Source: Dickeya solani IPO 2222 | GTDB lineage: Bacteria > Pseudomonadota > Gammaproteobacteria > Enterobacterales > Enterobacteriaceae | DNA length: 32,000 nucleotides | Direction of reading: 5' to 3' | NCBI RefSeq assembly: GCF_001644705.1 | Contig: NZ_CP015137.1 | Location: forward strand, 4,590,001-4,622,000 | Shown here: piece after piece, positions 385 to 25,391 of the stretch | Numbering within the stretch: position 1 is the stretch's first letter | How the letters are laid out: every line of letters begins with the position of its first letter | The notes under the pieces: model-generated | Database searches by the model: none | What the model was told of the DNA's origin: nothing | Seen by the model: the letters and a program-made list of their open reading frames with translations, nothing else | Translations under genes and position numbers: made by a program

Positions 385-794
385 CACGTACTCCTGTTAA
401 TGAGAAAACCCTACGCCACGCTTCAACCCGAATGCTCTCAACGCCAAAACAGGCTAAAGCTCTTGCCAGCAAGCATATGGCCCAAACTCACTTTTAGTAA
501 GTACTAACAAAAAGGTTAGTGTGAAATAAAAATGCCAGCATTATCACAGAATGCTCGCGGCCAGCTTCCAGCTGGTATGCTGCCGGGTAACCTGTAAGAT
601 AATCGACCTACCGGTTTTTTAGTTTCAGTCACATCGCACTTATGCGATATTGCTTTTTCAGAGCGCTAATGACGCAAATATTTGTCATATTTGTCACTTC
701 TTTACGCATTTGATTCATGATCATCAGAATTATAATCGCAGATATTGAACACGATTTTCTGCCTTGACGGTTTATCACAAAGGGTCTCTTTGGC

Positions 795-2111
795 GTGGCA
801 AAATTATTTTTACGCAGTGGAAATTTAGACGATTTTCTTGCGTTGGGAGAGAACGGCCAGCCCGTTTATGCTTCGGCGCTACAATTACGGGAGACACTGC
901 GTCTTCGCAAACAACAGCACATCGCTGACTGTCTGGCCATTCCCCAACCTAACGAGGATGGCGATCGCATCGACTGGTATGCGCCCTTCGCCGGTAAGAT
1001 CACCTCCTGGATGGCGGCCAGCGACGAGCAACGCGAACAGGCGCTGCTGTTGCTGGAACAGTATCTCGGCACCGTTGACGCCATTAGCGAGCGGGCGCGT
1101 CAATCCAACAAACCGGCCCAGAAACTCTTCGGTGTATTGTTGTCGAAAGCCTTTCAGTTTCCGGGTTCCAATCATGTCTATTTGGTGGACGATAAACCGG
1201 TTATCACCTTCTGGGGTTTTGTCAGCCTGGGCAAAAAATCTCGCGTCGATGTGCTGGAGAGTTTGCGCCCGGTTGAGCCGGTCGAGATTCCCGAGCCGGT
1301 TCCGGAACCGCTGCCGGAAGTAACCACGCAGGTCGCCGACCCCGAACCGGAACAACCGGCGCTGCCGGTCGAACCGGAACCGGTCGTGGTTGCCGAACCG
1401 GTCGCTCCGCTGCAAACCGCCCCGGCGCGGCGCCGGGTCTGGACCAGCATGTGGTTGCTGGCGCCGGGTGCCGCGTTATTGGCGACGCTGGCGTTCCAGA
1501 TTCGCGGCTGCGTTTCTCAACCCGAAAACAACACCCCGCCGGCGGTGACCGCCATCAAACCGGAAAAACGCGCGCTGAGCGCCCCGCCGGCGGATACGCT
1601 TTCACCGCCGAATCTGCCGTTGGAAGTGGCGACGCTGTTGCCGTCGCCAGCGGTGGCTGAGCAGAAGAAACCCGAAGAAAAAGCGCCGGAAGCGCCCGCC
1701 CATGCAGAGATGAGCGCCGCGCCGAAGGGCGCGCTGGTGATGCCTGCCGACGCAGTAAAAATCGGCTCCATCCGTTTCCTCGACGGCAACTGGCAAGCGG
1801 TAGTCGCCATGAAAAATCCGCTGACCGGCAAACCACCGGTTCTCCGCTACCAGATCAAAGACGGTAAAGGCCGGGTACGCTTTAACTACAGCGAAAAAGT
1901 CACCTGTCAGGCTGAGGTAGAGGCCGGGTTGCACCAGTCCGGCAATCTGGTGATCAACAGCCGCTATCGGGCGCGCTGCAGCGATGGTTCCCGTTATCCG
2001 ATGCCGGAAATCGTCTGTACCCGGCAGGAATCGAGCGAGGCGGCAGAATGTAAAGGCCGCTACGATGCCGACACTGAGCTACCGATGACGATTAAGCGTG
2101 AGAGCAAATAA
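795..2111 (+). CDS. srfA: SrfA family protein; predicted bitopic membrane protein with Pro/Glu-rich linkers
   Basis: 438-codon ORF with a GTG start. The N-terminus MAKLFLRSGNLDDFLALGENGQPVY..LQLRETLRLRKQQ matches Salmonella SrfA as I recall it. It sits immediately upstream of srfB (3-nt gap). There is one hydrophobic segment, VWTSMWLLAPGAALLATLAFQI. Confidence 0.8.
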   Translation: MAKLFLRSGNLDDFLALGENGQPVYASALQLRETLRLRKQQHIADCLAIPQPNEDGDRIDWYAPFAGKITSWMAASDEQREQALLLLEQYLGTVDAISERARQSNKPAQKLFGVLLSKAFQFPGSNHVYLVDDKPVITFWGFVSLGKKSRVDVLESLRPVEPVEIPEPVPEPLPEVTTQVADPEPEQPALPVEPEPVVVAEPVAPLQTAPARRRVWTSMWLLAPGAALLATLAFQIRGCVSQPENNTPPAVTAIKPEKRALSAPPADTLSPPNLPLEVATLLPSPAVAEQKKPEEKAPEAPAHAEMSAAPKGALVMPADAVKIGSIRFLDGNWQAVVAMKNPLTGKPPVLRYQIKDGKGRVRFNYSEKVTCQAEVEAGLHQSGNLVINSRYRARCSDGSRYPMPEIVCTRQESSEAAECKGRYDADTELPMTIKRESK

Positions 2112-2113
2112 CC

Positions 2114-5104
2114 ATGCTGGCAACCCTGACAGATTACAAACAACACATTACGCTGATTCAGAATAGCGGTCTTCAGTTTCTCGATTTTGCGTTAAAGCTC
2201 CCGCCAGCCCGGTCAAGCTTCGCCAATCGCTTTGTTCGCAAGAGCGCCAACGGGCCGCTGTTGCGGCTGACGTACAACGAACACAGCGGAAAATACGCCT
2301 TGCCGAGCGCCATGCAGGTGCTGCCGGAAGCGGTCAATCCGGAATCCAGTTACACGCTGGAACAGTCGCTGCGTCTGCTGAGCAACGTATGGCTGCCGCT
2401 GCCCTTCTTCCGCTTTAATCCGCCGCGTACCTTCATGGGCGGCCCGAACAACTGGGCGCGGGTACAGGTGCTGGAGCTGGGCGAGCCGGACGATGACGGC
2501 AATACTCACCGCCTCTGTCTGGCCTTCGATACCCGCGTTTATCCGGAAAGCCACGATCTGGAAGCGCTGGCGCCCAACGAAAACGACATCAACGCCGGGC
2601 GTTTGTTCACGCTGGCCTATCACAGCGAAGAACTGGACGATTTTCTCGACCAGACCTGGGTGGACGGCTGGCTGCGCGAAGCGTTTTCCCAGCAGGCGCT
2701 GGTGGTGGAAAGCCGCAAACCCCGCGATATCCGCCAGAATCTGCGTGAATTCGAATATCAGGCACATTACCTGAATCTGCTGGATATTATGGCGACGCTG
2801 CTGGATGTGCCGGAAATCCGCATCACTAGCGGTACGCTGAAAGAGCCGGCCATCAATGTGGATCTGATTCTTGATGTCGGCAACTCCCACACTGCCGGGA
2901 TTCTGGTGGAGGATCACGCCGACGAAAGCAACGGCCTCAAACAGACCTACGAGCTACAGATCCGCGATTTGAGCCAGCCTCATTATCTGTACAACGAGCT
3001 GTTCGACAGCCGGGTGGAATTCGCCCAGGCGCGCTTCGGCAAGCAGAATTTTTCCTTCGAAAGCGGTCGCGACGATGCGTTTGTCTGGCCGTCGATTACC
3101 CGCGTCGGGCGCGAGGCCAGCCGTCTGGCGCTGCAACGTCAGGGAACCGAAGGCTCCAGCGGTATCTCCAGCCCGCGCCGTTATCTGTGGGACGAAGAGC
3201 CGTATGTGCCAGGCTGGCGCTTCAGCCAGACCAACGGCCCGCGTCAGCAGGAACCGCTGGCGACCGCCATGCCGTTGACCATGCTGGTCAACGATGAAGG
3301 CCAGCCGCTGTTCAGTTTACCGCTGGACGAACGCCTGCCGGTGTTCGACCCGCACTACAGCCGCAGTTCGGTGATGACGTTCATGCTCTCCGAACTGCTG
3401 GCGCAGGCGCTGATGCAAATGAACAGCCCCGCCCAACGGCTGAAGATGATTCACGCCAACGCGCCGCGCCAGTTACGCAACATTATTCTGACCCTGCCCT
3501 CGGCCATGCCTAAACCGGAACGCGAGATCTTCCGGCGCCGGATGATCGAAGCGATCGGGCTGGTGTGGAAAGCGATGGGCTGGCACCCGGCCGATGAGGA
3601 TTTCCTGACGGCGGATGGCAAGCGCCACAGCGGCGTGCCGGTACCGGAAGTTCAGATGGAGTGGGATGAAGCCACCTGCGGACAGATGGTATACCTCTAC
3701 AACGAAGCGCAGGTGAATTTCGGCGGCCGGGCGGAGGCGTTCTTCGCCAGCATGGCGCGGCCGGACAAAGAACTGGCGGACGACGAACAGCCGGGGAAAA
3801 CCTTACGTATCGCGTCTATCGATATCGGCGGCGGCACCACCGATCTGGCGATTACCCAATACTGGCTGGACGACGGCGTCGGCAGCAACGTCAAAATCAT
3901 CCCCCGCCTGCTGTTTCGTGAAGGGTTTAAAGTCGCCGGCGATGACATTCTGCTGGACGTGATCCAGCTGTATGTGTTGCCCGCGTTGCAGGTCGCACTG
4001 AAAAAAGCCGGCGTCACCAGTCCGGATAGCCTGATGACCCGGCTGTTCGGCAGCGAAGGCCGCATGGACGGCCAACTGACGCTGCGCCAGCAGGTCACGC
4101 TGCAGATGTTTATTCCTATCGGCCAGGCGATTCTGGAAGCCTACGAACAGTTCGATCCGCTCGATCTGAACGCGGAAATCGACACCACCTTCGGCGAAAT
4201 GCTGCCGCAGGCGCCGACGCGCAAAGTGCTGGAATACGTTAACAGCGAGATCCAGCGTGAACTGCCGGACGAGGAAACGCCGTTCGACATCCTGCAAGTA
4301 CCGTTGATCCTACGTCTTGGCAAGCTGCACAGCGAATTTCTGGCCAACCGCATGAGCATTACCCAGCACCTGCGGCTGATGTCGGAAGTGGTGTCGCTGT
4401 ATGCCTGCGACGTGCTGTTGCTGACCGGTCGCCCGTCCCGTTTCCCGGGCATTCAGGCGCTGTTCCGCCACCTGCAGCCGCTGCCGATTAACCGCATGAT
4501 GTCGCTGGATGGCTATCACACCAGCGACTGGTATCCGTTTAACAAGCGCGGACGTATCGAAAACCCGAAATCCACCGCCGCGGTGGGGGCGATGCTGTGC
4601 CTGCTGGCGCTGGATCTGCGTCTGCCCGGTTTCTACTTCAAAGCCGGGGATTTCGAACCCTATTCCACCGTGCGCTACCTCGGTATGCTGGACAGCAGCC
4701 ACACCCTCACCACCGATAACGTCTACTATAACGATATCGATCTGGATGACGCCGATTTCACGCTGGACGATCAGTCCGGTTTCGAAGTACGCGGCTCGCT
4801 GTGCCTCGGCTTCCGCCAGTTGGACAACGAACGCTGGCCCGCCTCGCCGCTCTACTCGCTGTCGATCGTCGATCCAGAGCTGGCCCGCAAGGTGGCCGGC
4901 GACAGCGTACTGCACGTGCGCCTGAAAGTGGTGCCGGGCGACGATAACCTCACGCCGGAGCGCGTCGAGATCGCCGACGCGGTGCTGGGTTCCGGGCTCG
5001 CCATTTCGCCGCATCAGTTAAGGCTGAAACTCAATACCTTGTCCAGCACGGTTTCCGGCATGGCACATTACTGGATCGATAGCGGGAGCGTCTTCAAGAA
5101 ATGA
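2114..5104 (+). CDS. srfB: SrfB family protein (annotated virulence factor SrfB); carries actin/Hsp70-type phosphate-binding motifs
   Basis: 996-aa ORF of the size and position expected for SrfB. It contains LILDVGNSHTAGILVE and ASIDIGGGTTDLAI. Its stop overlaps the srfC start (ATGA at 5101-5104). Confidence 0.9.
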   Translation: MLATLTDYKQHITLIQNSGLQFLDFALKLPPARSSFANRFVRKSANGPLLRLTYNEHSGKYALPSAMQVLPEAVNPESSYTLEQSLRLLSNVWLPLPFFRFNPPRTFMGGPNNWARVQVLELGEPDDDGNTHRLCLAFDTRVYPESHDLEALAPNENDINAGRLFTLAYHSEELDDFLDQTWVDGWLREAFSQQALVVESRKPRDIRQNLREFEYQAHYLNLLDIMATLLDVPEIRITSGTLKEPAINVDLILDVGNSHTAGILVEDHADESNGLKQTYELQIRDLSQPHYLYNELFDSRVEFAQARFGKQNFSFESGRDDAFVWPSITRVGREASRLALQRQGTEGSSGISSPRRYLWDEEPYVPGWRFSQTNGPRQQEPLATAMPLTMLVNDEGQPLFSLPLDERLPVFDPHYSRSSVMTFMLSELLAQALMQMNSPAQRLKMIHANAPRQLRNIILTLPSAMPKPEREIFRRRMIEAIGLVWKAMGWHPADEDFLTADGKRHSGVPVPEVQMEWDEATCGQMVYLYNEAQVNFGGRAEAFFASMARPDKELADDEQPGKTLRIASIDIGGGTTDLAITQYWLDDGVGSNVKIIPRLLFREGFKVAGDDILLDVIQLYVLPALQVALKKAGVTSPDSLMTRLFGSEGRMDGQLTLRQQVTLQMFIPIGQAILEAYEQFDPLDLNAEIDTTFGEMLPQAPTRKVLEYVNSEIQRELPDEETPFDILQVPLILRLGKLHSEFLANRMSITQHLRLMSEVVSLYACDVLLLTGRPSRFPGIQALFRHLQPLPINRMMSLDGYHTSDWYPFNKRGRIENPKSTAAVGAMLCLLALDLRLPGFYFKAGDFEPYSTVRYLGMLDSSHTLTTDNVYYNDIDLDDADFTLDDQSGFEVRGSLCLGFRQLDNERWPASPLYSLSIVDPELARKVAGDSVLHVRLKVVPGDDNLTPERVEIADAVLGSGLAISPHQLRLKLNTLSSTVSGMAHYWIDSGSVFKK

Positions 5105-7605
5105 AACCATTAACGCCCAAACAGTTGTCGAGCCGTCTCAGCCGTCAGTTGCAATCCGTTTCGCAAGGCGTAGATCAGGCGATCGCCTGGGTGGATGAAA
5201 CCCGGCGCAACGTTCCCCGCCTGGATATGGAAGCCGATCGGCTCGTCGTCAAGCTGCGACGTTGCCGCAACAAGGCCCGCGGGCTGTCCGATTCGTCGCT
5301 TAAAGAGATCGCCATGGGCATGTTCGGGTTGGCTCAGGGCGGCAAAACCTATCTGCTGACCTCGCTGGCCGGCGGCGAAACCGGACGGATTGAAACCTCC
5401 GTCGGCGGCGTCACGCTGGATTATCAGAAAAACATCAATCCGGATAACCAGCAGCCGGCCTTTGTCACCCGCTTTACCCGGCAGGCTGAAGGCAAAAACA
5501 CCCCGAACCCGGTGCAGATCCAGTTGCTCAACGAGGCCGATATCGCCCGTATTATGGCCTATGCCTTCGTACTGGAAGACAGTCAGAACCCGGTGCCGGA
5601 GCTCGACGAACAACATATCGCCGAGCACCTGAAAACCCTGTCGTTGCACCGCCAGCAGGAAGCGGTGCCTGGACTGGACGGCGATGACGTGGTCGCGCTG
5701 TGGGATTATCTGGTGCGCCACGACGCCCGTCGTCAAAAACCGCTGGAACGCAAATTCTGGCCGCTGGCGGTGGAACTGGCGCCGCATCTTAGCATTGACG
5801 ACCGCGCCAGCCTGTTCTCGGTTCTGTGGGGCGAACAGTCGGAATACACCTCGCTCTACCGCCATTTCGCCCACACGCTGGAGCAATTGTCCGGTGCCCG
5901 TAAGATACTGGCGCCGATCAGCCTGCTGGTGGATGAATCGCTACAGCCCGACAGCGGTATTTTCAACGCCAACCTGTTCGACCGGCTCAATAGCCCTTCC
6001 GATCTCAGCGCACAGGTGCGCCCTATCGTCAACGGCCGCGCGGCCAGAAATGTGGAGCTGTCGCTGGCAGAACTGCTCATGCTGGCGGCTGAAGTGCAAA
6101 TCCCGCTGTTGTCGCCGCCAAAGGAAACGTTGTTCGAGCAGGTTGACCTGCTCGATTTTCCGGGGTTCAGCCTGCAGGACGAGCCGGAATTCGAGTCGGA
6201 CGAGGACAACCCGGAGCGGCTGTTACGACTCAAACCACACCCGTTGTCCCGTGCGTTGCTGCGCGCTAAACGCGCCTATTTGCTGGAGCGTTATACCGAC
6301 GATCAGGAAATGAATCTGCTGATGGTCTGTACCGCCGCCGCTTGCAAAGCGGACGTGCGCCACGTCGGCCGGGCGCTGGATTTTTGGGTGCGTCATACCC
6401 AGGGCGAAAACCCGCAAATCCGCAGCCGCCGCAAGCCCGGCCTGATCTGGGCGGTGACCCGTCATGACCGGCGTTTCACCCACGGCTATAACAATGATGA
6501 AGCGGTACAGCGTTACGTCGGTAACCCCGGCGATGCCTGGGGCACCATGCTGGCGATGGACAAGCGCGGCATCAACCGGATGGCGGCCTGGCTGGACGCG
6601 GAAGTGCGCCGTGAAGTCAAACTGGGGCGCATCAACGAGCAACTGAGCGAATTGCAGCGCGAACTGTCCGATAACCTGCTCGGCAGTTGGTATCAGCCGG
6701 CCGGCGCCGATGATCCGGCACACAAACAGCATATCGCCGAGTCGATGCTCAAAGCGTTGCAAACCCGAACCGGCGTACACGGCGAACTGCTGGAGCGGTT
6801 ATTGCCTTCCCGCGATGAAATACGCCGACTGTATCTGCAACAGCAGGAGCAGACGCAACGCAACTTCGCGTCCTATCATGAAACGCAGGATACGGCGGTG
6901 CCGCTGGTCAGCTATGAACCGTTTGGCGTCGGGATGGATATCGACCTGTTCAGCGACGCCGCCGACCCGAGCGAAGAAGACGAAACCATCATCGCCCCGG
7001 CGCCGACCGAGGAAGAACAAACCGAAAACCACAGCTATGAGGCGGAGTTCGCCCGTAATCTGTACCGGTATTGGATCAACCACCTGCGTAACCTGCCGGA
7101 AAACATCGCCATCATTGAATTGCTGGGAATTAACCGCCCCACCATTGAAATGCTGGTGGAGGAACTGATTACGGCCAGCGTGCGGCTGAAGATTGAAGAT
7201 GAGCTGCAAACCATGCTGGTGGATTCCGGGCAGTTGGGTATTAACCGGGAAAGCAAGGCGGATCGTCAGGTATCGCGCGCGCTCAACGTCCTCGGCGATT
7301 TCGTCGCCTGGCTGGGCTTCCAGCAGGTGTCCGAGGCCAGCCGACCGGACAGCCGCGTCAACAAAGGCAACAAGATCTTTGCCAAGCCGGAAAAGCAAAC
7401 GGCCAACTTCGGCACCTCCCGCCGGTTGACCAAACTGTCGGCGACGCCGGTCAACAATACCGCTTATTACATTTATGACTGGCTGATCGGCCTGAACGAG
7501 ATGATTATCCAGAACGCCGGCTATGCGGCCGGCCGTGATATCAAACCCAAACAGCGCGAACGTCTGGGAACGATTCTGGGTCTGATCAAACCGGCCGAAG
7601 GCTGA
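5101..7605 (+). CDS. srfC: SrfC family protein (annotated virulence effector SrfC); P-loop NTPase, probably a GTPase
   Basis: 834-aa ORF, third gene of the srf operon. Walker A GLAQGGKT at 5326-5349, DLLDFPG at 6145-6165, and TRHD at 6457-6468. There is an acidic stretch near residue 620. Confidence 0.9.
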   Translation: MKPLTPKQLSSRLSRQLQSVSQGVDQAIAWVDETRRNVPRLDMEADRLVVKLRRCRNKARGLSDSSLKEIAMGMFGLAQGGKTYLLTSLAGGETGRIETSVGGVTLDYQKNINPDNQQPAFVTRFTRQAEGKNTPNPVQIQLLNEADIARIMAYAFVLEDSQNPVPELDEQHIAEHLKTLSLHRQQEAVPGLDGDDVVALWDYLVRHDARRQKPLERKFWPLAVELAPHLSIDDRASLFSVLWGEQSEYTSLYRHFAHTLEQLSGARKILAPISLLVDESLQPDSGIFNANLFDRLNSPSDLSAQVRPIVNGRAARNVELSLAELLMLAAEVQIPLLSPPKETLFEQVDLLDFPGFSLQDEPEFESDEDNPERLLRLKPHPLSRALLRAKRAYLLERYTDDQEMNLLMVCTAAACKADVRHVGRALDFWVRHTQGENPQIRSRRKPGLIWAVTRHDRRFTHGYNNDEAVQRYVGNPGDAWGTMLAMDKRGINRMAAWLDAEVRREVKLGRINEQLSELQRELSDNLLGSWYQPAGADDPAHKQHIAESMLKALQTRTGVHGELLERLLPSRDEIRRLYLQQQEQTQRNFASYHETQDTAVPLVSYEPFGVGMDIDLFSDAADPSEEDETIIAPAPTEEEQTENHSYEAEFARNLYRYWINHLRNLPENIAIIELLGINRPTIEMLVEELITASVRLKIEDELQTMLVDSGQLGINRESKADRQVSRALNVLGDFVAWLGFQQVSEASRPDSRVNKGNKIFAKPEKQTANFGTSRRLTKLSATPVNNTAYYIYDWLIGLNEMIIQNAGYAAGRDIKPKQRERLGTILGLIKPAEG

Positions 7606-7612
7606 CCCCTGC

Positions 7613-7640
7613 GGCGGAGCGTAACGCTCCGCCCTTTCAG
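7613..7640 (+). terminator. Possible intrinsic terminator after srfC
   Basis: GGCGGAGCG-taa-CGCTCCGCC, a perfect 9-bp stem 8 nt after the srfC stop. It is followed only by a weak CTTTC tract. Confidence 0.4.
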
Positions 7641-7841
7641 CATAAAAGTTTACACAATCAAATAATTATGCTGCTTTCCTTATCCCCTATTTCGATAAAA
7701 TCACGTTAGAAATCAGGCTGGTCTTGCAAAAATGCGACTCTCACGTCATAGTTTTACACGGGGTATGCACTGTTGTACCGAATGTATAACGAATGCTTTT
7801 ATTGCCATGTTTTTTCTTTGATTAGCCCGGTTTAAAGCAAT

Positions 7842-7898
7842 ACTGTCGATGTTAAAAAGTACTGTCGATGTTAAAAAGTACTGTCGACGCTAAAAAAG
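7842..7898. repeat. 19-bp tandem direct repeat, three copies
   Basis: ACTGTCGATGTTAAAAAGT at 7842-7860 and 7861-7879 (identical), then ACTGTCGACGCTAAAAAAG at 7880-7898. It lies in a 570-bp AT-rich intergenic region. Confidence 0.9.
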
Positions 7899-8175
7899 GC
7901 ACGCAGGCTACCCCGCTCTTTTTTCCACCATCATGACGACCAGGCTGTTATTCCTGTAAAGGAAAACAGAACGGCTCTTCTTCCAGGGATATCGGGTTGC
8001 AGTTATCCATTGGGTGTGTTCTGAAACGCACTAACACCCGTATTGACATACCAGGCTACTGGTGACGGCAACGTCGCCGGGAAACGATTGATATCCCCAT
8101 TCCACGACGCCTGACACCCCGCTCAGACGCGCGGTTTTCTCTCAGCTGTTCACGACATGGCACAGGTAACGCATC

Positions 8176-8631
8176 ATGAGTAACAGTAGTGAACCCGACA
8201 CCGCCTTTGACGATTTTCTGACCCTATCCGCTCTGCTTACCGGCTTCAGTCAGTTTGAACTGACCGGCACCGGGCTGGCCCGCGACTATTTCACCTGGCT
8301 GGAGCACAACGCCGCCGCGCCGTTCAAACACCTGCTGCACGACTTTGCGGCACAACCGGATGATGAAACATTACGGCTCAACTGGCTGGAAGCCACGGTG
8401 CTGACATCGCTGACGCTCGGCCCGATCGCCCGCAGCCTGCTGCGTCTGTGGTACACCGGCCAGTGGGTCCCCATCAGTCCGGAACCGGACGCCGCCTATT
8501 TTCTCAGCGATGCCGCCTGGCGCGAGGCGTTGATCTGGCAGGCCATCCACGCCCACCCACAGGCGATTCGGCAGCAGGAATTCGGCGCCTGGGCCGAGCC
8601 GCCCATCGCCGAGTGGAGAACCCGCGGATGA
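8176..8631 (+). CDS. Small subunit of an FAD-dependent sugar/polyol dehydrogenase complex (membrane-bound sorbitol dehydrogenase small-subunit type); no Tat signal
   Basis: 151-aa ORF whose stop overlaps the GMC gene start (ATGA at 8628-8631). FDDFLTLSALLTGFSQFELTGTGLARDYF resembles the conserved core of small subunits that pair with GMC large subunits. The assignment is from memory and from gene context. Confidence 0.6.
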   Translation: MSNSSEPDTAFDDFLTLSALLTGFSQFELTGTGLARDYFTWLEHNAAAPFKHLLHDFAAQPDDETLRLNWLEATVLTSLTLGPIARSLLRLWYTGQWVPISPEPDAAYFLSDAAWREALIWQAIHAHPQAIRQQEFGAWAEPPIAEWRTRG

Positions 8632-10466
8632 ATGTCATCACCCCTCATCAGGCTGAGCAGACCGATTACGACGTGGTGATCGTCGGCGGCGGCATTGCCG
8701 GTTCGCTGATGGCAAAGACCCTGACCCGCGGGGGAAAGCGCTGTCTGATACTGGAGGCGGGCGACGGTGATAACCTGCATTACGCCGGGTATCGGCATAC
8801 GCTGCAGCGTTATCGTCAGCACCCGGATAAAAGCCATCAGGTATACGGCCCGCGTAACGTCAACGCGCCGGCGCCGCACGATACCGCCCTCCAGCCCCTG
8901 ATGCCCGACGGCTATGATGACCGCGGCTATCTGGTGCAACGCGGTCCGTTGCCATTCAGCTCCACCTATTGCCGCCAGCTCGGCGGCACCTCGCTACAGT
9001 GGCTCGGCAGCGCCATGCGCATGCTGCCGGAAGATTTCGAATTACAAAGCCGCTACGGCATCGGGCTGGACTGGCCGTTGCGTTATAACGATCTTGAACC
9101 CTGGTATCGGGCGGCGGAGTACGAACTGGGCGTCTCCGCCAATGTGGAGGAACAGGCTTATCTGGGTATCCGGTTTCCGTCGGATTATGTCTATCCGATG
9201 CAAGGCCTCCCCCCAGCCTGGGGCGATCGACAACTGGCGCGTCGTCTCAATGGCATGACGGTCCTGGAAGACGGGCAGGCTACGCCGCTGACTCTGCGTG
9301 GCACGCCGTCCGCGCGCAACGGCGTGCCGCACCCCGGTTATGATCACAGCCGCGGCTATCATCCTCGCGGCGCGGCAGGCAGCCCGCACCTCGGCCTGCG
9401 CTGCTCTGGCAATAGCCACTGCACGCCGCTCTGCCCGACGCAGGCTCGCTACAACGCGTTGAAAACGCTGGAAGACGCCGCCCCGACATTGCTGGATGTG
9501 GTCACCTGTAGCGTGGTGCACAAGTTGCTGATAGACCCGTCGACCGATGCCATCACCGGCGTTCAGTTTCGCCATTATGTGCATCAGGAAACGGCATTAC
9601 ACCACCTGCATACCGTCAGCGCCCGACGCTATGTGCTGGCCGGCAACGCCATTGCCAATGCGGTGCTGTTGCTGGCGTCCGACGCTTGTAACGGTAATGA
9701 TCTGGTGGGACGTCATCTGATGGATCACCCGGTCCTGCCGGTCTGGGGCCGGGCCGACGCCCCCTTGTGGCCGATGCGCGGTCCGCTCGCCACGTCGGGG
9801 ATTGAAGCCATGCGGAGCGGCCCGGCCCGCGCGCATCGGGCGGCCTATCGCATCGAGCTGAGCAACGACGGCTGGCGCTGGCCGGTCAACGCCTTATACC
9901 ACGATATTGAACAGTTACTGGCTAAATCGTTATGCGGTCCGCGCTTACGCAGCCAAATGCGCGAACAGCTGTCACGACAATTTAGCGCACGTTGCCTGGT
10001 GGAACAGTTGCCGGAATACCATAACCGGGTGACCATTCATCCTGACTACCGCGACGCGCTGGGCAACTACCGTCCGGTCATCCACTATGACCTGTCGCTG
10101 TACACCCGCACCGGCGTCGCGCGCGCCGGCAACGTTATGCGGCAGATTTGCCGGCACGCCGGCATTCGCGACCACAGTCATTACTCGCCCGACGACCCTG
10201 GCTACTTTACCTGTCAGGGGCAGCCGCTGGTGTTTGTCGGCGCCGGGCATATCGCCGGCACTCACTGCATGGGCAGCTCACCCCACCATTCGGTGGTTGA
10301 TCGCCAGCAGCGCAGCTGGATTCATAAGAATCTCTATCTGGTGGGGGCTGGGAATATGGTCAGTATGGGAACGGCACCGCCCACCCTGACGCTGGCGGCG
10401 CTGACGCTATGGGCCGCGCACACAATTCTTTCCGAACTGGACAGAATGTGTGCCAGCACACGTTAA
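8628..10466 (+). CDS. GMC-family FAD-dependent oxidoreductase (dehydrogenase large subunit)
   Basis: From the ATG at 8628 the protein reads MNVITPHQAEQTDYDVVIVGGGIAGSLMAKTL, a dinucleotide-binding GxGxxG motif. The C-terminal GAGHIAGTHCMGS...LYLVGAGNMVSMGTAPPTLTLAALTL is typical of GMC enzymes. The track ORF begins at 8448, but that extension overlaps the upstream gene. Confidence 0.9.
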   Translation: MNVITPHQAEQTDYDVVIVGGGIAGSLMAKTLTRGGKRCLILEAGDGDNLHYAGYRHTLQRYRQHPDKSHQVYGPRNVNAPAPHDTALQPLMPDGYDDRGYLVQRGPLPFSSTYCRQLGGTSLQWLGSAMRMLPEDFELQSRYGIGLDWPLRYNDLEPWYRAAEYELGVSANVEEQAYLGIRFPSDYVYPMQGLPPAWGDRQLARRLNGMTVLEDGQATPLTLRGTPSARNGVPHPGYDHSRGYHPRGAAGSPHLGLRCSGNSHCTPLCPTQARYNALKTLEDAAPTLLDVVTCSVVHKLLIDPSTDAITGVQFRHYVHQETALHHLHTVSARRYVLAGNAIANAVLLLASDACNGNDLVGRHLMDHPVLPVWGRADAPLWPMRGPLATSGIEAMRSGPARAHRAAYRIELSNDGWRWPVNALYHDIEQLLAKSLCGPRLRSQMREQLSRQFSARCLVEQLPEYHNRVTIHPDYRDALGNYRPVIHYDLSLYTRTGVARAGNVMRQICRHAGIRDHSHYSPDDPGYFTCQGQPLVFVGAGHIAGTHCMGSSPHHSVVDRQQRSWIHKNLYLVGAGNMVSMGTAPPTLTLAALTLWAAHTILSELDRMCASTR

Positions 10467-10581: not shown

Positions 10582-12138
10582 ATGAACTTAAACGAACACG
10601 CCGTACACCAAGATTTGGACACGATGTTCAGGGAAAAAGGTTACGTCAAATTAACCAGCCATAAGGATCTGGCGCACGAGTTAGACGACATCCGGGACCT
10701 ATTGCAAAAAGCGATGGTGCTGGAACACGCGGTGATCCCCCCTTACCTGACTATGCTTTATACGATGGATGACGACATCGATCCGCGTGTCCCCGAGGTG
10801 ATCCATTCCGTCGTGATTGAAGAAATGCTGCATTTTGTGATGGTCAGCAACCTGCTGAATGCTGTGGGCGGCACGCCAAATATCAGCGGCCCCGATTTCT
10901 TGCCCGACTACCCAGCCACGCTGCCGTTCGGCATCGAGGATCTGGAAATTCAGCTACACCCGTTTTCTCAGCACGCCATACATCAGGCGATGCAAATCGA
11001 GCACCCAAAATACGTGCGCCCGGAAGTGGTGGCCAGCCATGTCTGTAGCGACATGTCGATCGGTGAATACTACGTTTATATTGAGTCGCGCCTGCGGGCA
11101 GCGGTGGAATCGTTTGGCGAAAAAGCCGTGTTCTGCGGCGACCCGACGCGCCAGATTGAGCCGGAGCAGTTCTGCCACGGCTCATACGGCACGGTCATTC
11201 CGGTGACCGATCTGGGCAGCGCGATCACCAGCCTGCGTCAAATCTGCGATCAGGGCGAGGGTTCGCCGCACAATATCTGGCAGGGCGAAGACAATGAGGT
11301 CCCGCACTATTATCGCTTCAACGAAATCTACTGCGAACGGCTGTACGCCCACGGCGACACCATCGCCAGCGGCCCGACCGGCGAACCGTTGACGATCGAA
11401 TGGGACAAAGCCGCCAGAACCCACAGCGCGGCCAAAGTCAGCGACTATCCGGAAGGCGAGTTGCACAAGGCGATTGTGCGTTTCAACCGTCGCTACTGCG
11501 AACTGCTGGAAAACCTGCAAATGGCGCTGTCCGGCCGGCCGCTAAAACTCACCCCGGCGGTGATGGCGATGGGTGCGCTGCGTGAAGATTTCCGGGCGAT
11601 CGTCTCCCACCCGTTCCCAGGCGACAACGCCTACCGCGCCGCGCCGACGTTCGAATATACGCCGCCGCCGCCGCCGCGTTTCCAGGCCAAGAGTCAGGCG
11701 GTGACGTTCTCCAACAATCAGACTACGCTGGAGAAACTCGGCCAGGCCTATGCCGCGGGCGACCTGTCGATGGCGCTCACCTGCCTGAGCGAACAGTTGG
11801 TGTGGGACATGACCGGCCCGGTGGATGTGCCTTATACCGGTGTGTTCTACGGCCACGAAGGCTTCTCCCGTTTCTGGTCGCTGATGAGCCAGACGGTAGA
11901 ATTCAGCAGCGAAGTGGTGGAAAAAGTCTTCTTCAGCGACAATCAGGCGATGGCGTACGGCAGCCAGCAAGGGATCACCAAATCCACCCGCGTACCTTAC
12001 AGCTACGATTGGGCGATACGGTATGAATTCACCGACGACCACCGTATCCGGCTGATGCGTAACTACTTCAACCCGATGCGTATTCAGGCCGCACTGGCCG
12101 CTACACCGCCGAAACCGCGCTCGTTCATCAACAAGTAA
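10582..12138 (+). CDS. Ferritin-like (putative di-iron) domain protein fused to a C-terminal SnoaL/NTF2-like domain
   Basis: 518-aa ORF. The N-terminal part, with LEHAVIPPYLTMLY and VVIEEMLHFVMVSNLLNAVGG (ExxH), resembles the ferritin-like family found in VioB-type proteins. A PPPPP linker follows. The C-terminal ~130 aa (LEKLGQAYAAGDLSMALTCLSEQLVWDMTGP...YGHEGFSRFW) looks SnoaL-like. Confidence 0.75.
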   Translation: MNLNEHAVHQDLDTMFREKGYVKLTSHKDLAHELDDIRDLLQKAMVLEHAVIPPYLTMLYTMDDDIDPRVPEVIHSVVIEEMLHFVMVSNLLNAVGGTPNISGPDFLPDYPATLPFGIEDLEIQLHPFSQHAIHQAMQIEHPKYVRPEVVASHVCSDMSIGEYYVYIESRLRAAVESFGEKAVFCGDPTRQIEPEQFCHGSYGTVIPVTDLGSAITSLRQICDQGEGSPHNIWQGEDNEVPHYYRFNEIYCERLYAHGDTIASGPTGEPLTIEWDKAARTHSAAKVSDYPEGELHKAIVRFNRRYCELLENLQMALSGRPLKLTPAVMAMGALREDFRAIVSHPFPGDNAYRAAPTFEYTPPPPPRFQAKSQAVTFSNNQTTLEKLGQAYAAGDLSMALTCLSEQLVWDMTGPVDVPYTGVFYGHEGFSRFWSLMSQTVEFSSEVVEKVFFSDNQAMAYGSQQGITKSTRVPYSYDWAIRYEFTDDHRIRLMRNYFNPMRIQAALAATPPKPRSFINK

Positions 12139-24584: not shown

Positions 24585-24640
24585 CCTTGCTTCTCCGACT
24601 GGGTGGAATGCGCCGTGACAAAGGCGACAGATATTTTTAC

Positions 24641-24667
24641 TTATCGGAAGAAAATGGTGTTTTTTTA
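24641..24667 (-). promoter_or_regulatory. Candidate sigma-28 (FliA) promoter for the MCP gene
   Basis: The minus strand reads TAAAAAAA-N11-TCCGATAA against the consensus TAAAGTTT-N11-GCCGATAA. The -10 element matches 7 of 8 positions. It lies about 57 nt upstream of the ATG. Confidence 0.45.
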
Positions 24668-24676
24668 GCAAAACAG

Positions 24677-24692
24677 CGTGATGAAAGTCACA
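24677..24692. promoter_or_regulatory. Candidate CRP-binding site
   Basis: CGTGA-tgaaag-TCACA with a right flank of TTT. It matches 9 of 10 positions of the TGTGA-N6-TCACA core. It lies upstream of the MCP promoter region. Confidence 0.35.
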
Positions 24693-24767
24693 TTTCATGC
24701 AAAATAATGCTTTATTACAATCAAGATTGATTAGTTATCATCATCAAACGGCATTGTATTCGATCAC

Positions 24768-24796
24768 AAAAAAAGCCCCTGCCGGAAGGCAAGGGC
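24768..24796 (-). terminator. Rho-independent terminator of the exported hypothetical gene
   Basis: The minus strand reads GCCCTTGCC-ttcc-GGCAGGGGC followed by T7, about 25 nt after the stop at 24822. Confidence 0.8.
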
Positions 24797-24821
24797 TAAG
24801 TCATTGGGCAAAGAAATAGGA

Positions 24822-25391
24822 TTATTTGGTCGCTGCCAGGCTCTTGCCAATCGCCAGAACCACACTGGCCTGACGCTGCTGCGCCGGCTCAAACATTTTG
24901 TTGTCCACCAGCGTCACCGGCTGGACTTCGACGATACGACCTTTTACCACCGCAGAGCACAGCGAATGCACCACCTGGTCATTCAGAATGGTCAGCAGGC
25001 AACGGAATTTGGGCGCGCCGTCAGCGACCAGTTCCTTTTTTTCCGGCCGAATACGTTGGCGCAGCATCTCTTTCTCGGAGCTGGCGACCACGACATCCAG
25101 CGCGCTGTCGCCAGCCACCGTCTGCCCGTTGACCAACGGTGGCATATAAACGGTTACCAGCGCCTTACGCTTGGTTGCGGTATCCACATATTCCGCCTGC
25201 ACCGAATGCTCTTTCGCATCCACTTCCACCTTCTGCCGTTTCAAACTATCGACAACAGCCGGCAATGCATCGCCCAGTTGTTGCGAGGTATAACCGGCGA
25301 TCAGATCCGGATTGCTGTTGTCGGCAAAGCCATAGAGCGGCATAGCCAGCAACAGACCGCACAGTCCTTTCGTTATCACGCCCTTACTCAT
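24822..25391 (-). CDS. Hypothetical exported protein (Sec signal peptide, ~166-aa mature form)
   Basis: I take the start as MSKGVITKGLCGLLLAMPLYGFA|DN at 25391, preceded by AAGGAGAG 7 nt upstream. I recognise no family. It has its own terminator. Confidence 0.7.
   Translation of the reverse strand: MSKGVITKGLCGLLLAMPLYGFADNSNPDLIAGYTSQQLGDALPAVVDSLKRQKVEVDAKEHSVQAEYVDTATKRKALVTVYMPPLVNGQTVAGDSALDVVVASSEKEMLRQRIRPEKKELVADGAPKFRCLLTILNDQVVHSLCSAVVKGRIVEVQPVTLVDNKMFEPAQQRQASVVLAIGKSLAATK

What the first reader, a model, noticed from the sequence alone, without database searches (positions are those of the whole stretch)
795..7605. srfABC: a translationally coupled three-gene module of unknown biochemistry that reads like a membrane anchor plus an actin-fold ATPase plus a GTPase
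Seen in sequence: the three ORFs (438, 996 and 834 aa) are packed with a 2-nt gap and then a 4-nt ATGA overlap, which points to stoichiometric co-expression. SrfA has one transmembrane segment. SrfB carries two ASKHA-type phosphate-binding motifs. SrfC carries Walker A, DxxG-like and TRHD motifs. Established knowledge: the family was named as SsrB-regulated factors in Salmonella and was later placed in the flagellar regulon. As far as I know it has no demonstrated molecular mechanism, so the virulence-factor label is historical. Inference: the trio may form a membrane-tethered nucleotide-driven machine. The ETEC LeoABC dynamin-like operon, as I recall, was also first labelled virulence and later reinterpreted as an anti-phage system. 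That makes a non-virulence role (envelope remodelling, defence) worth testing.
Basis: partly seen in the sequence, partly recalled or inferred. Interest (0 to 1): 0.7.

Follow-up and report, generated by a model that had tools for sequence, protein, structure and literature searches.

The report
Hsp70-like plus dynamin-like membrane operon
This is the long-annotated srfABC "virulence" operon of Dickeya dadantii; it encodes a membrane-spanning adaptor, an Hsp70-like ATPase and a dynamin-like GTPase, looks like a cut-down form of a widespread envelope gene cluster, and its real function is still unknown.

Summary
Three ORFs lie at 795-2111, 2114-5104 and 5101-7605, with a 2-nt gap and an ATGA overlap, and they match the SrfA, SrfB and SrfC families. 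The organism is Dickeya dadantii.

Structure prediction and fold search support the fold guesses and sharpen them. SrfB is Hsp70-like: all 50 top PDB hits are Hsp70s, with E-values down to 2e-10. SrfC is a BDLP/mitofusin-type dynamin-like protein, and LeoA is among its hits. SrfA is a bitopic protein whose N-domain elsewhere precedes VWA, trypsin-like or subtilase domains, so it is more than an anchor.

srfB and srfC are adjacent in 61 of 63 loci across phyla. In 36 of those loci the trio heads a larger cluster with TagQ/R/S/T-like proteins and a periplasmic VWA protein. This was partly described in 2013. Dickeya has only the three genes.

SrfC G-motifs are canonical in every extended cluster and in Dickeya, but eroded in Yersinia, Enterobacteriaceae and Salmonella.

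The defence reading is not supported: no PADLOC hits, no defence-island context, no phage copies, and silencing srfB in Serratia increases phage resistance.

Best guess (confidence 0.4): an inner-membrane-anchored, two-NTPase envelope remodelling or repair module. The locus itself is an ordinary orthologue of a named operon.

The parts
668..736 (+). Putative srfA promoter: TTGATT (710-715), 15-nt spacer, TATAAT (731-736), preceded by two FlhD4C2-box-like half-sites (668-683 and 696-710, 12 nt apart)
   Evidence: Read. The block CAAATATTTGT...TCACTTCTTTAnGCnTTTGATTC is conserved upstream of srfA in Pectobacterium and Brenneria, and GTTTGATT in Yersinia, Rouxiella and Pantoea (alignment). The half-sites match the consensus I recalled at only 9/13 and 10/13. 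The sigma-70 scan found nothing because it requires a 16-18 nt spacer. Inference only.
795..2111 (+). srfA, 438 aa, GTG start: bitopic inner-membrane protein
   Evidence: ORF. NCBIfam SrfA_fam, 564 bits. Alignment of 25 orthologues.
795..1268 (+). SrfA N-domain (aa 1-158), predicted cytoplasmic, proposed docking module for SrfB/SrfC
   Evidence: Most conserved part of SrfA. 965 clusters at 50% identity in 1.84 billion proteins, nearly always at the extreme N-terminus. Elsewhere it precedes VWA, trypsin-like or subtilase domains. Conserved positions across 53 diverse sequences: G21 Q30 A48 P50 D60 W61 Y62 G67 L116 P123 P135 V136 W140 G141.
1443..1502 (+). SrfA transmembrane segment (aa 217-236), flanked by Pro/Glu/Val-rich variable linkers
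   Evidence: Hydropathy scan: the single peak, 1.54. RRR on the N-side suggests N-in topology. The linkers vary in length and sequence.
1752..2108 (+). SrfA C-domain (aa 320-438), predicted periplasmic, with four invariant Cys (C371, C395, C408, C419)
   Evidence: Alignment and Cys positions. Found as a separate HMM hit in tandem paralogues in Desulfovibrio loci.
2114..5104 (+). srfB, 996 aa: Hsp70-like ATPase with an extra N-terminal beta-rich domain (aa 1-170) and a C-terminal beta domain (aa ~855-975)
   Evidence: Pfam PF07520, 1493 bits. AF2 model pLDDT 71.4, pTM 0.55. Foldseek against PDB: all 50 top hits are Hsp70 family, best E 2e-10, probability 1.00, 190 hits at E<=1e-3.
2873..2893 (+). 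SrfB phosphate-1 motif DVGNSHT (aa 254-260)
   Evidence: Invariant or nearly so in 90 orthologues. DxGNxxT across phyla. Lies in the loop between strands 247-254 and 263-267.
3821..3844 (+). SrfB phosphate-2 motif DIGGGTTD (aa 570-577)
   Evidence: Invariant in 90 orthologues and in 70 sequences from several phyla. Aligns to DnaK DLGGGTFD in hhalign. Lies between strands 563-571 and 576-587.
4415..4450 (+). SrfB adenosine-type motif LLLTGRPSRFPG (aa 768-779)
   Evidence: Invariant or nearly so. Follows strand 767-771 and precedes helix 778-787.
5101..7605 (+). srfC, 834 aa: dynamin-like (BDLP/mitofusin-type) GTPase. N-terminal helical hairpin, G domain (aa ~70-500) with a helical insert (aa 145-262), C-terminal helical bundle (aa ~504-830) with a disordered loop at 584-643
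   Evidence: Pfam PF10139, 665 bits. AF2 model pLDDT 79.8, pTM 0.79. Foldseek against PDB: BDLP 2j69/2j68 (E 6e-4, probability 0.94-0.97), Campylobacter DLP 5owv (probability 0.99), Fzo1, MFN1/2, IniA, LeoA.
5326..5349 (+). SrfC G1/Walker A GLAQGGKT (aa 76-83)
   Evidence: G76 and G81 invariant, K82 in 78 of 79 orthologues, position 83 is S or T in 48 of 79. GKS in every extended-cluster locus.
6145..6165 (+). SrfC G3/Walker B DLLDFPG (aa 349-355)
   Evidence: P354 invariant, G355 in 42 of 79 orthologues. DLLDFPGxR in nearly all extended-cluster loci, with the PG pair kept in every one.
6457..6468 (+). SrfC G4-type motif TRHD (aa 453-456)
   Evidence: T453 and D456 invariant among the 79 close orthologues. 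T[KM]xD in most distant lineages, with a few exceptions.
7613..7633 (+). GC-rich hairpin (9-bp stem, 3-nt loop) 8 nt after the srfC stop, followed by CUUU: probable operon 3' end
   Evidence: RNA fold centroid -18.4 kcal/mol, z = -4.2, 0 of 200 shuffles as stable. The U-tract is weak, so the terminator scan did not list it.

Best explanation
srfABC encodes a three-protein complex at the cytoplasmic face of the inner membrane.

SrfA spans the membrane once, N-terminus in and C-terminus out. Its conserved N-domain recruits two soluble NTPases: SrfB, an Hsp70-like ATPase, and SrfC, a dynamin-like GTPase. Its Cys-rich C-domain sits in the periplasm.

By analogy with other bacterial dynamin-like proteins, SrfC assembles on the membrane in a GTP-dependent way and remodels or seals it. 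SrfB, like Hsp70 acting on other assemblies, uses ATP to clamp, load or recycle SrfA or SrfC.

In most lineages the trio is co-transcribed with a TagQRST-like envelope-damage sensor (outer-membrane glycine-zipper lipoprotein, periplasmic FGE-sulfatase-fold protein, FtsX/MacB-type ABC pair) and a periplasmic VWA protein. So the ancestral job is to respond at the inner membrane to trouble sensed in the envelope.

Dickeya and its relatives lost the sensor genes, kept an intact SrfB and SrfC, and appear to express the trio from a flagellar class-2-type promoter. There it would serve envelope and surface homeostasis during surface motility.

Shown here: the folds, motifs, gene linkage and distribution. 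Published: complex formation. Inferred: topology, direction of signalling and membrane remodelling activity.
For: Folds: SrfB is Hsp70-like and SrfC is dynamin-like. Catalytic motifs are intact in Dickeya and correctly placed in the models.

Topology: one hydrophobic segment with RRR on the N side, no signal peptides, four invariant Cys in the C-domain. The SrfA N-domain is nearly always N-terminal. In other lineages it is followed by exported-type domains: subtilase, trypsin-like, VWA.

Complex: native PAGE and pairwise co-IP of the Xenorhabdus orthologues (PMC6950479). The ATGA coupling of srfB and srfC is conserved across families.

Linkage: srfB-srfC adjacent in 61 of 63 loci, and the two exceptions are contig ends. 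SrfA is detectable in 55 of 63. The extended cluster is present in 36 of 63 loci, is annotated the same way in E. coli ET490, and was described with tagQRST labels in Deltaproteobacteria that mostly lack a T6SS (PMC3608642). TagQRST is a membrane-damage sensor in P. aeruginosa (PMC13584744).

Coupling of sensor and GTPase: all 36 extended loci keep canonical G1 and G3. Of 11 srfABC-only loci scored, 9 have lost the G3 Gly and 6 the G1 Ser/Thr.

Phenotypes are surface or envelope related. Salmonella mutants swim normally but swarm poorly (PMC4219756). Serratia srfB knock-down groups with LPS genes for phage resistance with swimming retained (PMC11797060).

A conserved promoter block with FlhDC-box-like half-sites lies upstream of srfA.
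Against: No direct evidence of membrane binding, nucleotide hydrolysis or remodelling exists for any Srf protein.

SrfC lacks the hydrophobic paddle of BDLP-type dynamins. The fold-search E-values are modest (6e-4) and TM-scores low (0.17-0.25).

The SrfB model has only moderate confidence (pTM 0.55).

The SrfA TM segment is only moderately hydrophobic (1.54), and its topology is inferred.

Many enterobacterial SrfC proteins, Salmonella's included, have degenerate G-motifs yet the operon is retained and gives a phenotype. So GTP hydrolysis cannot be essential to every function of the trio.

A September 2026 preprint that I could not open discusses SrfA among protein-kinase-like domains. If SrfA's N-domain is kinase-like, signalling rather than docking may be its role.

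The FlhDC-box matches are weak (9/13 and 10/13) and rest on a consensus I recalled.
Confidence: 0.4

Rival explanations
1. Secreted or released tripartite cytotoxin. SrfA, SrfB and SrfC are delivered to eukaryotic cells, enter them and trigger apoptosis, as claimed for Xenorhabdus stockiae.
For: PMC6950479: lysates of E. coli expressing the Xenorhabdus operon are cytotoxic to insect and mammalian cells. Each purified protein reportedly enters HeLa cells, all three are needed for full activity, and injection is insecticidal.
Against: There is no signal peptide or recognisable secretion signal. SrfA is membrane-embedded, and SrfB and SrfC have housekeeping-type NTPase folds.

The cluster is conserved in free-living, non-pathogenic lineages such as Methylococcus, Methylocapsa, Vreelandella, Tenacibaculum, Polaribacter and Planctomycetota.

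It is tightly linked to an ABC/FtsX pair and periplasmic sensor-type proteins. The assays used overexpressed proteins or lysates, and no natural secretion was shown.
Confidence: 0.08
2. Anti-phage defence system analogous to LeoABC/Eleos. The dynamin-like SrfC, with its partners, blocks phage infection at the membrane.
For: Dynamin-like fold with LeoA among the structural hits. Three-gene operon. From my own knowledge, bacterial dynamins (B. subtilis DynA, Eleos) protect against phage. The extended form sits on an integrase-flanked island in E. coli ET490 and is present in only 28 of 5426 E. coli genomes.
Against: No PADLOC match for SrfA, SrfB or SrfC (E up to 1) or for nine proteins of the extended cluster.

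104 flanking genes from 34 genomes show no defence enrichment. There are no copies on 2.9 million viral contigs.

SrfB is 64-99% identical across Enterobacterales and sits in housekeeping context, which looks like vertical inheritance. The operon is regulated by FlhDC.

Silencing srfB in Serratia gives more, not less, resistance to a jumbo phage.
Confidence: 0.07
3. Dedicated flagellar or swarming accessory. The trio acts on flagellar assembly, or on surface wetting or surfactant production, as part of the FlhDC regulon.
For: FlhDC control and a swarming-only defect in Salmonella. A conserved class-2-like promoter block upstream of srfA in Pectobacteriaceae and Yersiniaceae. Two MCP genes lie in the Dickeya window. 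FlgN appears in 2 of 104 flanking genes.
Against: Outside Enterobacterales the cluster is linked to TagQRST-like genes, not flagellar genes. It occurs in Bacteroidota (Tenacibaculum, Polaribacter), which from my own knowledge lack flagella. Swimming is normal in the mutants. The flagellar link looks like a lineage-specific regulatory recruitment.
Confidence: 0.15
4. Transmembrane signalling module. SrfA is a PpkA-like receptor whose N-domain is a (pseudo)kinase-like signalling domain, and SrfB and SrfC are its regulators or substrates rather than membrane remodellers.
For: Alphaproteobacterial proteins with SrfA N-domain, TM segment and VWA domain copy the kinase-TM-VWA layout of PpkA (PpkA architecture is from my own knowledge). 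The TagQRST-like partners normally feed a kinase. A 2026 preprint lists SrfA in a survey of protein-kinase-like domains.
Against: The conserved residues of the SrfA N-domain include no Lys/Glu/Asp/Asn/Asp catalytic set. At about 158 aa the domain is shorter than a kinase fold. There were no kinase Pfam hits in 10 SrfA-like proteins. hhalign against PknB and PKA gave probability below 1%, an insensitive test. The preprint could not be read.
Confidence: 0.15

Closest known systems
SrfABC of Salmonella enterica and Xenorhabdus stockiae (the named family)
   Same: Orthologous three-gene operon in the same order. Full-length matches to the SrfA, SrfB and SrfC models. The Xenorhabdus proteins form a heteromeric complex.
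   Different: Dickeya SrfC keeps canonical G1, G3 and G4 motifs, whereas Salmonella SrfC has GYAQSAKA and DIPVAP. According to PMC6950479, the Xenorhabdus locus has Tag-like genes nearby; Dickeya does not.
Bacterial dynamin-like proteins: BDLP (Nostoc), Campylobacter DLP1/2, IniA, DynA, and LeoA of LeoABC/Eleos
   Same: The SrfC model's best structural matches are these proteins. It has a G domain with G1, G3 and G4 plus long helical bundles, and it is encoded in a small operon with partner proteins.
   Different: No sequence-level similarity: a profile search of PDB sequences found nothing. About 270 aa, including a helical insert, lie between G1 and G3. There is no hydrophobic paddle or TM hairpin. 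The partner is an Hsp70-like ATPase rather than a second dynamin. There is no PADLOC Eleos match.
Hsp70 chaperones (DnaK, HscA/HscC, BiP, Hsp110)
   Same: All 50 top SrfB structural hits are Hsp70s, and full-length DnaK scores better than the NBD alone. The phosphate-1, phosphate-2, AGDD, adenosine and PKxTxxVGA blocks are conserved.
   Different: SrfB is 996 aa, with a 170-aa N-terminal beta domain, a helical linker and large inserts in the NBD. No sequence-level hit to any PDB Hsp70. No J-domain or GrpE-like gene in the operon. A substrate-binding domain is not established.
TagQRST-PpkA-Fha1 threonine phosphorylation pathway of the P. aeruginosa H1-T6SS
   Same: In 36 of 63 loci, srfABC is followed by a periplasmic VWA protein and by TagT-like (ABC ATPase), TagS-like (FtsX/MacB permease) and TagR-like (FGE-sulfatase) genes, with a TagQ-like (glycine-zipper) gene nearby. 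The same labels were used in PMC3608642.
   Different: These genes are absent from the Dickeya window. The 'PpkA' homologue has a signal-peptide-like leader and only the VWA part, with no kinase. There is no Fha or PppA, and usually no T6SS. SrfABC stands where the kinase and T6SS output would be.
ASKHA ATPases docked on bitopic membrane partners (MreB-RodZ, FtsA-FtsN, PilM-PilN, GspL) (own knowledge)
   Same: A cytoplasmic actin/Hsp70-superfamily protein is paired with a single-pass membrane protein whose cytoplasmic N-terminal part is conserved and whose periplasmic part varies.
   Different: This is an analogy only. No homology was detected, SrfB is Hsp70-like rather than actin-like, and an SrfA-SrfB contact through the N-domain is inferred, not shown.

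Membership tests
SrfABC operon family | Full-length matches to the curated SrfA, SrfB and SrfC family models | tested here: met
   NF040486 at 564 bits (cutoff 150). PF07520 at 1493 bits (cutoff 27.1). PF10139 at 665 bits (cutoff 28.1).
SrfABC operon family | Gene order A-B-C on one strand with tight junctions | tested here: met
   2-nt gap and ATGA overlap. Same order in L001-L034.
SrfABC operon family | FlhDC (flagellar class 2) control, as in Salmonella | tested here: inconclusive
   A conserved upstream block has weak FlhDC-box-like half-sites (9/13 and 10/13) abutting a TTGATT-15-TATAAT promoter. No expression data were available.
Dynamin superfamily (BDLP/mitofusin type) | G domain with G1 GxxxxGK[ST], G3 DxxG and G4 [TN][KR]xD | tested here: met
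   GLAQGGKT, DFPG and TRHD are present at canonical topological positions. They are conserved in all extended-cluster loci but eroded in several Enterobacterales.
Dynamin superfamily (BDLP/mitofusin type) | Overall fold: G domain plus helical neck and trunk bundles | tested here: met
   Foldseek top hits are BDLP, Campylobacter DLP, Fzo1, MFN1/2, IniA and LeoA, with probability up to 0.99. E-values are modest (>=6e-4) and TM-scores are 0.17-0.25.
Dynamin superfamily (BDLP/mitofusin type) | Intrinsic membrane-binding element (paddle or TM hairpin) | tested here: not met
   No hydrophobic segment: the maximum 19-residue hydropathy is 1.52, in a buried strand/helix region. Membrane recruitment would have to go through SrfA.
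Dynamin superfamily (BDLP/mitofusin type) | GTP-dependent dimerisation or oligomerisation with stimulated hydrolysis | not testable with these tools
   Needs biochemistry.
Hsp70 family | Two-lobed ASKHA nucleotide-binding domain with phosphate-1, phosphate-2 and adenosine motifs | tested here: met
   The motifs are invariant. All 50 top fold hits are Hsp70s, E down to 2e-10.
Hsp70 family | C-terminal substrate-binding beta-sandwich plus helical lid | tested here: inconclusive
   A C-terminal beta domain (aa ~855-975) is predicted at low to moderate confidence. Full-length DnaK aligns over ~770 columns and scores better than NBD-only entries. No residue-level check was possible.
Hsp70 family | Sequence-level family membership (Pfam HSP70 or PDB homologues) | tested here: not met
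   Only PF07520 matches. The profile search against PDB sequences found no Hsp70. hhalign to the DnaK NBD aligned only the DIGGGTTD block, probability 26%.
LeoABC / Eleos anti-phage system | Match to the defence-system HMMs and a defence-island context | tested here: not met
   PADLOC: no hit at E up to 1. The flanks show no defence enrichment.
TagQRST-type envelope sensor cluster (extended Srf cluster) | Adjacent ABC ATPase, FtsX/MacB permease, FGE-sulfatase protein and glycine-zipper lipoprotein | tested here: not met
   Absent from the Dickeya window within the 0.8 kb upstream and 24 kb downstream that it covers, and absent from 12 related enterobacterial loci. Present in 36 other loci.
Protein kinase-like superfamily (SrfA N-domain) | Kinase-like bilobal fold with catalytic Lys, Asp, Asn and Asp | tested here: inconclusive
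   No such conserved residue set. No kinase Pfam hit. hhalign to PknB and PKA gave probability below 1%.

The most novel reading that the evidence does not exclude
The Srf cluster is a bacterial envelope damage-response machine. A TagQRST-type periplasmic sensor signals through the modular SrfA adaptor to a dynamin-like GTPase and an Hsp70-like ATPase, which together reseal or remodel the inner membrane. This would be a prokaryotic Hsp70-dynamin partnership. It would also imply that the T6SS TagQRST pathway and the Srf system share one sensor with different outputs. Dickeya would hold a sensor-less but catalytically intact core, and Salmonella a GTPase-dead remnant.
Probability: 0.2. Interest if true: 0.8.

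Novelty: new member of a known kind. Interest (0 to 1): 0.5.

Why it matters
srfABC has carried a "virulence factor" or "effector" label since 2000 without a mechanism. It is present in a very wide range of bacteria: the SrfA N-domain alone defines 965 clusters at 50% identity.

Knowing that the trio is an Hsp70-like ATPase, a dynamin-like GTPase and a modular transmembrane adaptor, usually wired to a TagQRST-like envelope sensor, turns an opaque annotation into specific experiments on point mutants, localisation and envelope-stress assays.

It also warns that the two best-studied models are awkward. Salmonella SrfC has lost its GTPase motifs, and the Xenorhabdus work assumes a secreted toxin. 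Dickeya and Pectobacterium, or an extended-cluster species, would be better models.

For genome annotation, "virulence factor SrfB/SrfC" and the "ppkA" label on the cluster's VWA gene are misleading.

Tried and rejected
(1) Sequence-profile searches of SrfA, SrfB and SrfC alignments against all PDB sequences gave no meaningful hit. The folds had to come from structure prediction.

That was not enough.

(3) The bioRxiv preprint 10.64898/2026.09.18.752743, which mentions SrfA about 30-40 times in a survey of kinase-like domains, could not be opened under two id forms. A phrase-count probe returned nothing. Its claim about SrfA is therefore unknown to me.

I treat this as inconclusive.

(5) One literature query with min_terms=2 was too loose and returned irrelevant papers.

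(6) The sigma-70 scan found no promoter in 400-8200. A sigma-28 consensus search gave only weak matches.

(7) Rfam found nothing in the window.

(8) The scan of viral contigs for SrfB relatives found none.

(9) I considered D2 (the VWA protein) as a hidden PpkA-like kinase and rejected it. It has a conserved hydrophobic leader and only a VWA Pfam match.

Full report
1. The observation

The window holds three same-strand ORFs at 795-2111 (GTG start, 438 aa), 2114-5104 (996 aa) and 5101-7605 (834 aa). The first junction is TAA-CC-ATG, a 2-nt gap, and the second is an ATGA overlap. The products match the curated SrfA (NCBIfam NF040486, 564 bits), SrfB (Pfam PF07520, 1493 bits, end to end) and SrfC (PF10139, 665 bits) models. 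These are real genes and the identification as srfABC is correct.

SrfB is 99% identical to the Dickeya dadantii 3937 protein, so the organism is D. dadantii. A 9-bp GC-rich hairpin (-18.4 kcal/mol, z = -4.2) lies 8 nt after the srfC stop and marks the 3' end of the operon.

The rest of the window is ordinary chromosome: a GMC oxidoreductase, a ferritin-like protein, an inositol-phosphatase-family protein, a glycerophosphodiesterase with a sugar-type ABC transporter, ROK and LysR regulators, phenolic acid decarboxylase, a PTS EIIC, two MCPs, sodC, ogt and an fnr/crp-type regulator. There are no flagellar, T6SS or defence genes.

2. The three proteins

SrfA. An alignment of 25 orthologues shows five parts:
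- a very conserved N-domain (aa 1-158)
- a Pro/Glu/Val-rich linker of variable length
- one hydrophobic segment
- a second variable linker
- a conserved C-domain (aa ~320-438) with four invariant cysteines

The hydrophobic segment (aa 217-236) is the only one in the protein. It is moderately hydrophobic (1.54) and preceded by RRR. I infer N-in, C-out topology from the positive-inside rule, the lack of a signal peptide and the invariant cysteines.

SrfB. The blocks DVGNSHT, DIGGGTTD and LLLTGRPSRFPG are invariant or nearly so in 90 orthologues, and across 70 sequences from Proteobacteria, Desulfovibrionaceae, Bacteroidota, Clostridia and Planctomycetota, together with AGDD and PKxTxxVGA blocks. 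Sequence profiles did not reach any solved structure, and hhalign to DnaK aligned only the DIGGGTTD block. The AF2 model (pLDDT 71.4, pTM 0.55) puts each motif in the loop after a strand, as in ASKHA folds. Foldseek against the PDB returned only Hsp70-family proteins in the top 50 (DnaK, BiP, mortalin, Hsp110, Ssb, Ssz1). The best E-value was 2e-10, probability was 1.00, and 190 hits had E <= 1e-3. Full-length DnaK scored better than nucleotide-binding domains alone. So "actin-fold" is right at superfamily level, but SrfB is Hsp70-like, with an extra N-terminal beta-rich domain, a helical linker and a C-terminal beta domain.

SrfC. The AF2 model is good (pLDDT 79.8, pTM 0.79). Its best PDB matches are bacterial dynamin-like protein BDLP (E 6e-4, probability 0.94-0.97), the Campylobacter DLP pair (probability 0.99), Fzo1, mitofusins 1 and 2, Drp1, IniA and, at rank 12, LeoA. 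TM-scores are low (0.17-0.25), as expected for hinge-bending multi-domain proteins, and only two hits pass 1e-3. The assignment is therefore firm at superfamily level only. G1, G3 and G4 sit at canonical positions. SrfC has no hydrophobic paddle.

SrfB passes cleanly. SrfC passes only in part. Among 79 orthologues of at least 50% identity, G76, G81, P354, T453 and D456 are invariant, but the Mg-binding Ser/Thr is kept in 48 of 79 and the G3 glycine in 42 of 79.

Looking across 60-odd loci from many phyla resolves this. Lineages with the extended cluster keep GxSQxGKS, DLLDFPGxR and T[KM]xD. Erosion is confined to srfABC-only Enterobacterales:
- Yersinia: GKQ, DFPD
- Pantoea sp. C2G6: GKA, ELPA
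- Buttiauxella, Kluyvera, Citrobacter and RIT693: GKH or GKN, DIPx

Of 11 such loci scored, 9 lack the G3 Gly and 6 lack the G1 Ser/Thr. Salmonella SrfC reads GYAQSAKA and DIPVAP, and the gene is frameshifted in the record examined. Dickeya, Pectobacterium and Brenneria keep all motifs. Dickeya SrfC is thus plausibly an active GTPase. Salmonella SrfC, from which most genetic data come, probably is not.

4. Co-occurrence and the larger system

A scan of one genome per species found 76 loci with SrfB-like genes. HMMs built from my alignments show srfC next to srfB in 61 of the 63 loci with a strong SrfB match, and the two exceptions end at a contig edge. An SrfA domain is detectable in 55 of 63. 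Gene order is A-B-C in Proteobacteria, B-(x)-C-A in Bacteroidota and C-B in Planctomycetota.

Outside the core Enterobacterales, srfC is followed on the same strand by a conserved block:
- an unknown protein of ~340 aa
- a VWA protein of ~660 aa
- an ABC ATPase
- an FtsX/MacB-type permease
- an FGE-sulfatase-domain protein
- a glycine-zipper/coiled-coil protein of ~240 aa, sometimes located upstream instead

Thirty-six loci have this block, including Providencia, Pantoea eucrina, Pseudomonas, Aeromonas, Vreelandella, Achromobacter, Methylococcus, Rhizobiaceae, Acetobacteraceae, Rhodobacterales, Desulfovibrio and Anaerobiospirillum. Twelve enterobacterial loci, and the Dickeya window, have srfABC only.

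RefSeq annotation of E. coli ET490 shows the same long cluster on an island next to tRNA-Phe, an integrase and IS1. Only 28 of 5426 complete E. coli genomes have any SrfB match.

This linkage is not new. Campbell et al. [quoted passage not shown] The Xenorhabdus paper mentions T6SS post-translational control genes next to srfABC. TagQRST is the membrane-damage sensor that triggers the PpkA-Fha1 pathway of the P. aeruginosa H1-T6SS (PMC13584744).

This analysis adds three things: the breadth of the linkage, its loss in the clade that includes Dickeya, and the finding that the "PpkA" homologue has a conserved hydrophobic leader and only a VWA domain. It is a periplasmic VWA protein, not a kinase.

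5. SrfA is modular

The SrfA N-domain HMM also hits larger proteins in distant loci:
- N-domain plus VWA in two Alphaproteobacteria, in tandem with a canonical SrfA
- a weak N-domain match plus a trypsin-like peptidase in an Acetobacteraceae locus
- N-domain plus subtilase plus SrfA C-domain in a Bacteroidota locus
- subtilase plus SrfA C-domain in a second Bacteroidota locus, where the N-domain HMM found no match

Desulfovibrio loci carry two or three tandem paralogues with the SrfA C-domain.

An exhaustive search finds 965 clusters at 50% identity with the N-domain, nearly always at residues ~1-158 of proteins 370-670 aa long. Fourteen positions are conserved across 53 diverse sequences, and none forms a recognisable catalytic set. 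I read the N-domain as the constant, cytoplasmic, partner-binding end of a family of single-pass proteins with variable periplasmic ends.

The N-domain-TM-VWA layout mimics PpkA (kinase-TM-VWA, from my own knowledge). Together with an unreadable 2026 preprint that discusses SrfA among kinase-like domains, this keeps a (pseudo)kinase-like reading alive. My only test of it was negative but insensitive.

6. Function

Published phenotypes concern the cell surface.
- Salmonella srfC, polar srfB and whole-operon mutants swim normally but swarm poorly, and the operon is under FlhDC control (PMC4219756).
- Silencing srfB in Serratia gave more than 50% resistance to a flagellotropic jumbo phage while more than 50% of swimming was retained. 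It grouped with LPS biosynthesis genes (PMC11797060).
- The Xenorhabdus orthologues form a heteromeric complex by native PAGE and co-IP.

The Dickeya upstream region has a conserved block with a TTGATT-15-TATAAT promoter and two weak FlhDC-box-like half-sites abutting the -35. This is compatible with class-2 control but does not prove it.

My preferred model (confidence 0.4) is an inner-membrane-anchored Hsp70-like/dynamin-like pair, recruited by SrfA, that remodels or repairs membrane. Ancestrally it would act downstream of a TagQRST-like envelope sensor. In Dickeya it is sensor-less and tied to the motility programme.

7. Rivals

The secreted-toxin reading rests on overexpression and lysate assays. 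It fits poorly with the folds, the membrane anchoring, the lack of export signals and the presence of the cluster in free-living bacteria.

The defence reading is not supported:
- PADLOC finds nothing for the trio or for the extended cluster.
- 104 flanking genes from 34 genomes hit 112 Pfam families, none recurring more than three times, and show no defence enrichment.
- No relatives occur on viral contigs.
- Plasmid copies are mostly on very large non-mobilizable replicons.
- The Serratia phenotype has the wrong sign.

A purely flagellar role is contradicted by the distribution and neighbourhoods outside Enterobacterales. A signalling role for SrfA remains open.

8. Novelty

The locus is an orthologue of a named, annotated operon, and the extended neighbourhood was described in 2013. 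I found no paper in the searchable library that links bacterial SrfC with dynamin. The Hsp70-like call for SrfB, the modularity of SrfA, the non-kinase nature of the "PpkA" gene and the lineage-specific decay of SrfC's GTPase motifs appear to be increments on prior knowledge rather than a new kind of system.

Interest is moderate at 0.5. The locus is ordinary, but the analysis makes an old "function unknown" operon directly testable.

Noticed in passing
window 7841-7896: A 19-nt unit (TACTGTCGATGTTAAAAAG) repeated 2.9 times head to tail, 94% matching, in the AT-rich intergenic region between srfC and the next operon. It could be a set of regulator-binding sites for the downstream GMC-oxidoreductase operon.
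   Followed up: no
L030:6158-8236, L031:6921-8870, L048:5487-7226, L056:16847-19285, L059:16198-18045: SrfA domains recur with other domains: N-domain plus VWA (L030, L031), a weak N-domain match plus a trypsin-like peptidase (L048), N-domain plus subtilase plus SrfA C-domain (L056), and subtilase plus SrfA C-domain with no N-domain match (L059). Desulfovibrio loci L053 and L061 have 2-3 tandem SrfA C-domain paralogues.
   Followed up: partly
L003, L005, L007, L008, L011, L012; L078:11961-14119: SrfC G1 and G3 motifs are degenerate in Yersinia, Pantoea sp. C2G6, Buttiauxella, Kluyvera, Citrobacter and Salmonella, while every extended-cluster locus keeps them. In the Salmonella record srfC is also split by a frameshift.
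   Followed up: partly
L077 (E. coli ET490, NZ_CP100947.1 864310-882489): The extended Srf/Tag-like cluster lies on a genomic island next to tRNA-Phe, an integrase and IS1. It has two further conserved upstream genes: a 165-aa hypothetical and a 370-aa 'tellurite resistance domain protein' with no Pfam hit. Only 28 of 5426 E. coli genomes have any SrfB match.
   Followed up: partly
L009:16726-18720 and 11 homologues (alignment A7): The VWA gene of the extended cluster, labelled 'ppkA' in PMC3608642, has a conserved hydrophobic leader and no kinase domain. It resembles only the periplasmic part of PpkA.
   Followed up: yes
window 795; L001-L008, L010, L011, L014: The srfA start codon is GTG in Dickeya and in all 11 related loci where the start could be located. 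This is an unusually well conserved non-ATG start.
   Followed up: partly
P0361 (635 aa), P0390 (674 aa): Two representative proteins carry the SrfA N-domain twice (two matched stretches each).
   Followed up: no
plasmid collection: SrfB homologues below 60% identity occur on 114 Klebsiella plasmid records and on the ~500-kb Rahnella plasmids. Of the 144 matching records, 127 are typed non-mobilizable. I did not check whether the Klebsiella copies are the extended form.
   Followed up: no
window 8176-8631 and 8448-10466: A 151-aa ORF with no Pfam hit overlaps the listed start of the GMC-oxidoreductase ORF, so the real start of the latter is probably further downstream. This may be a small subunit plus flavoprotein pair, followed by a ferritin-like/SnoaL protein at 10582-12138.
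   Followed up: no
window 24001-25000: A local GC dip to 0.47, against 0.51-0.63 elsewhere, lies just downstream of an MCP gene and coincides with two overlapping ~210-aa ORFs on opposite strands. The + strand ORF has no Pfam match; the - strand one was not scanned.
   Followed up: no
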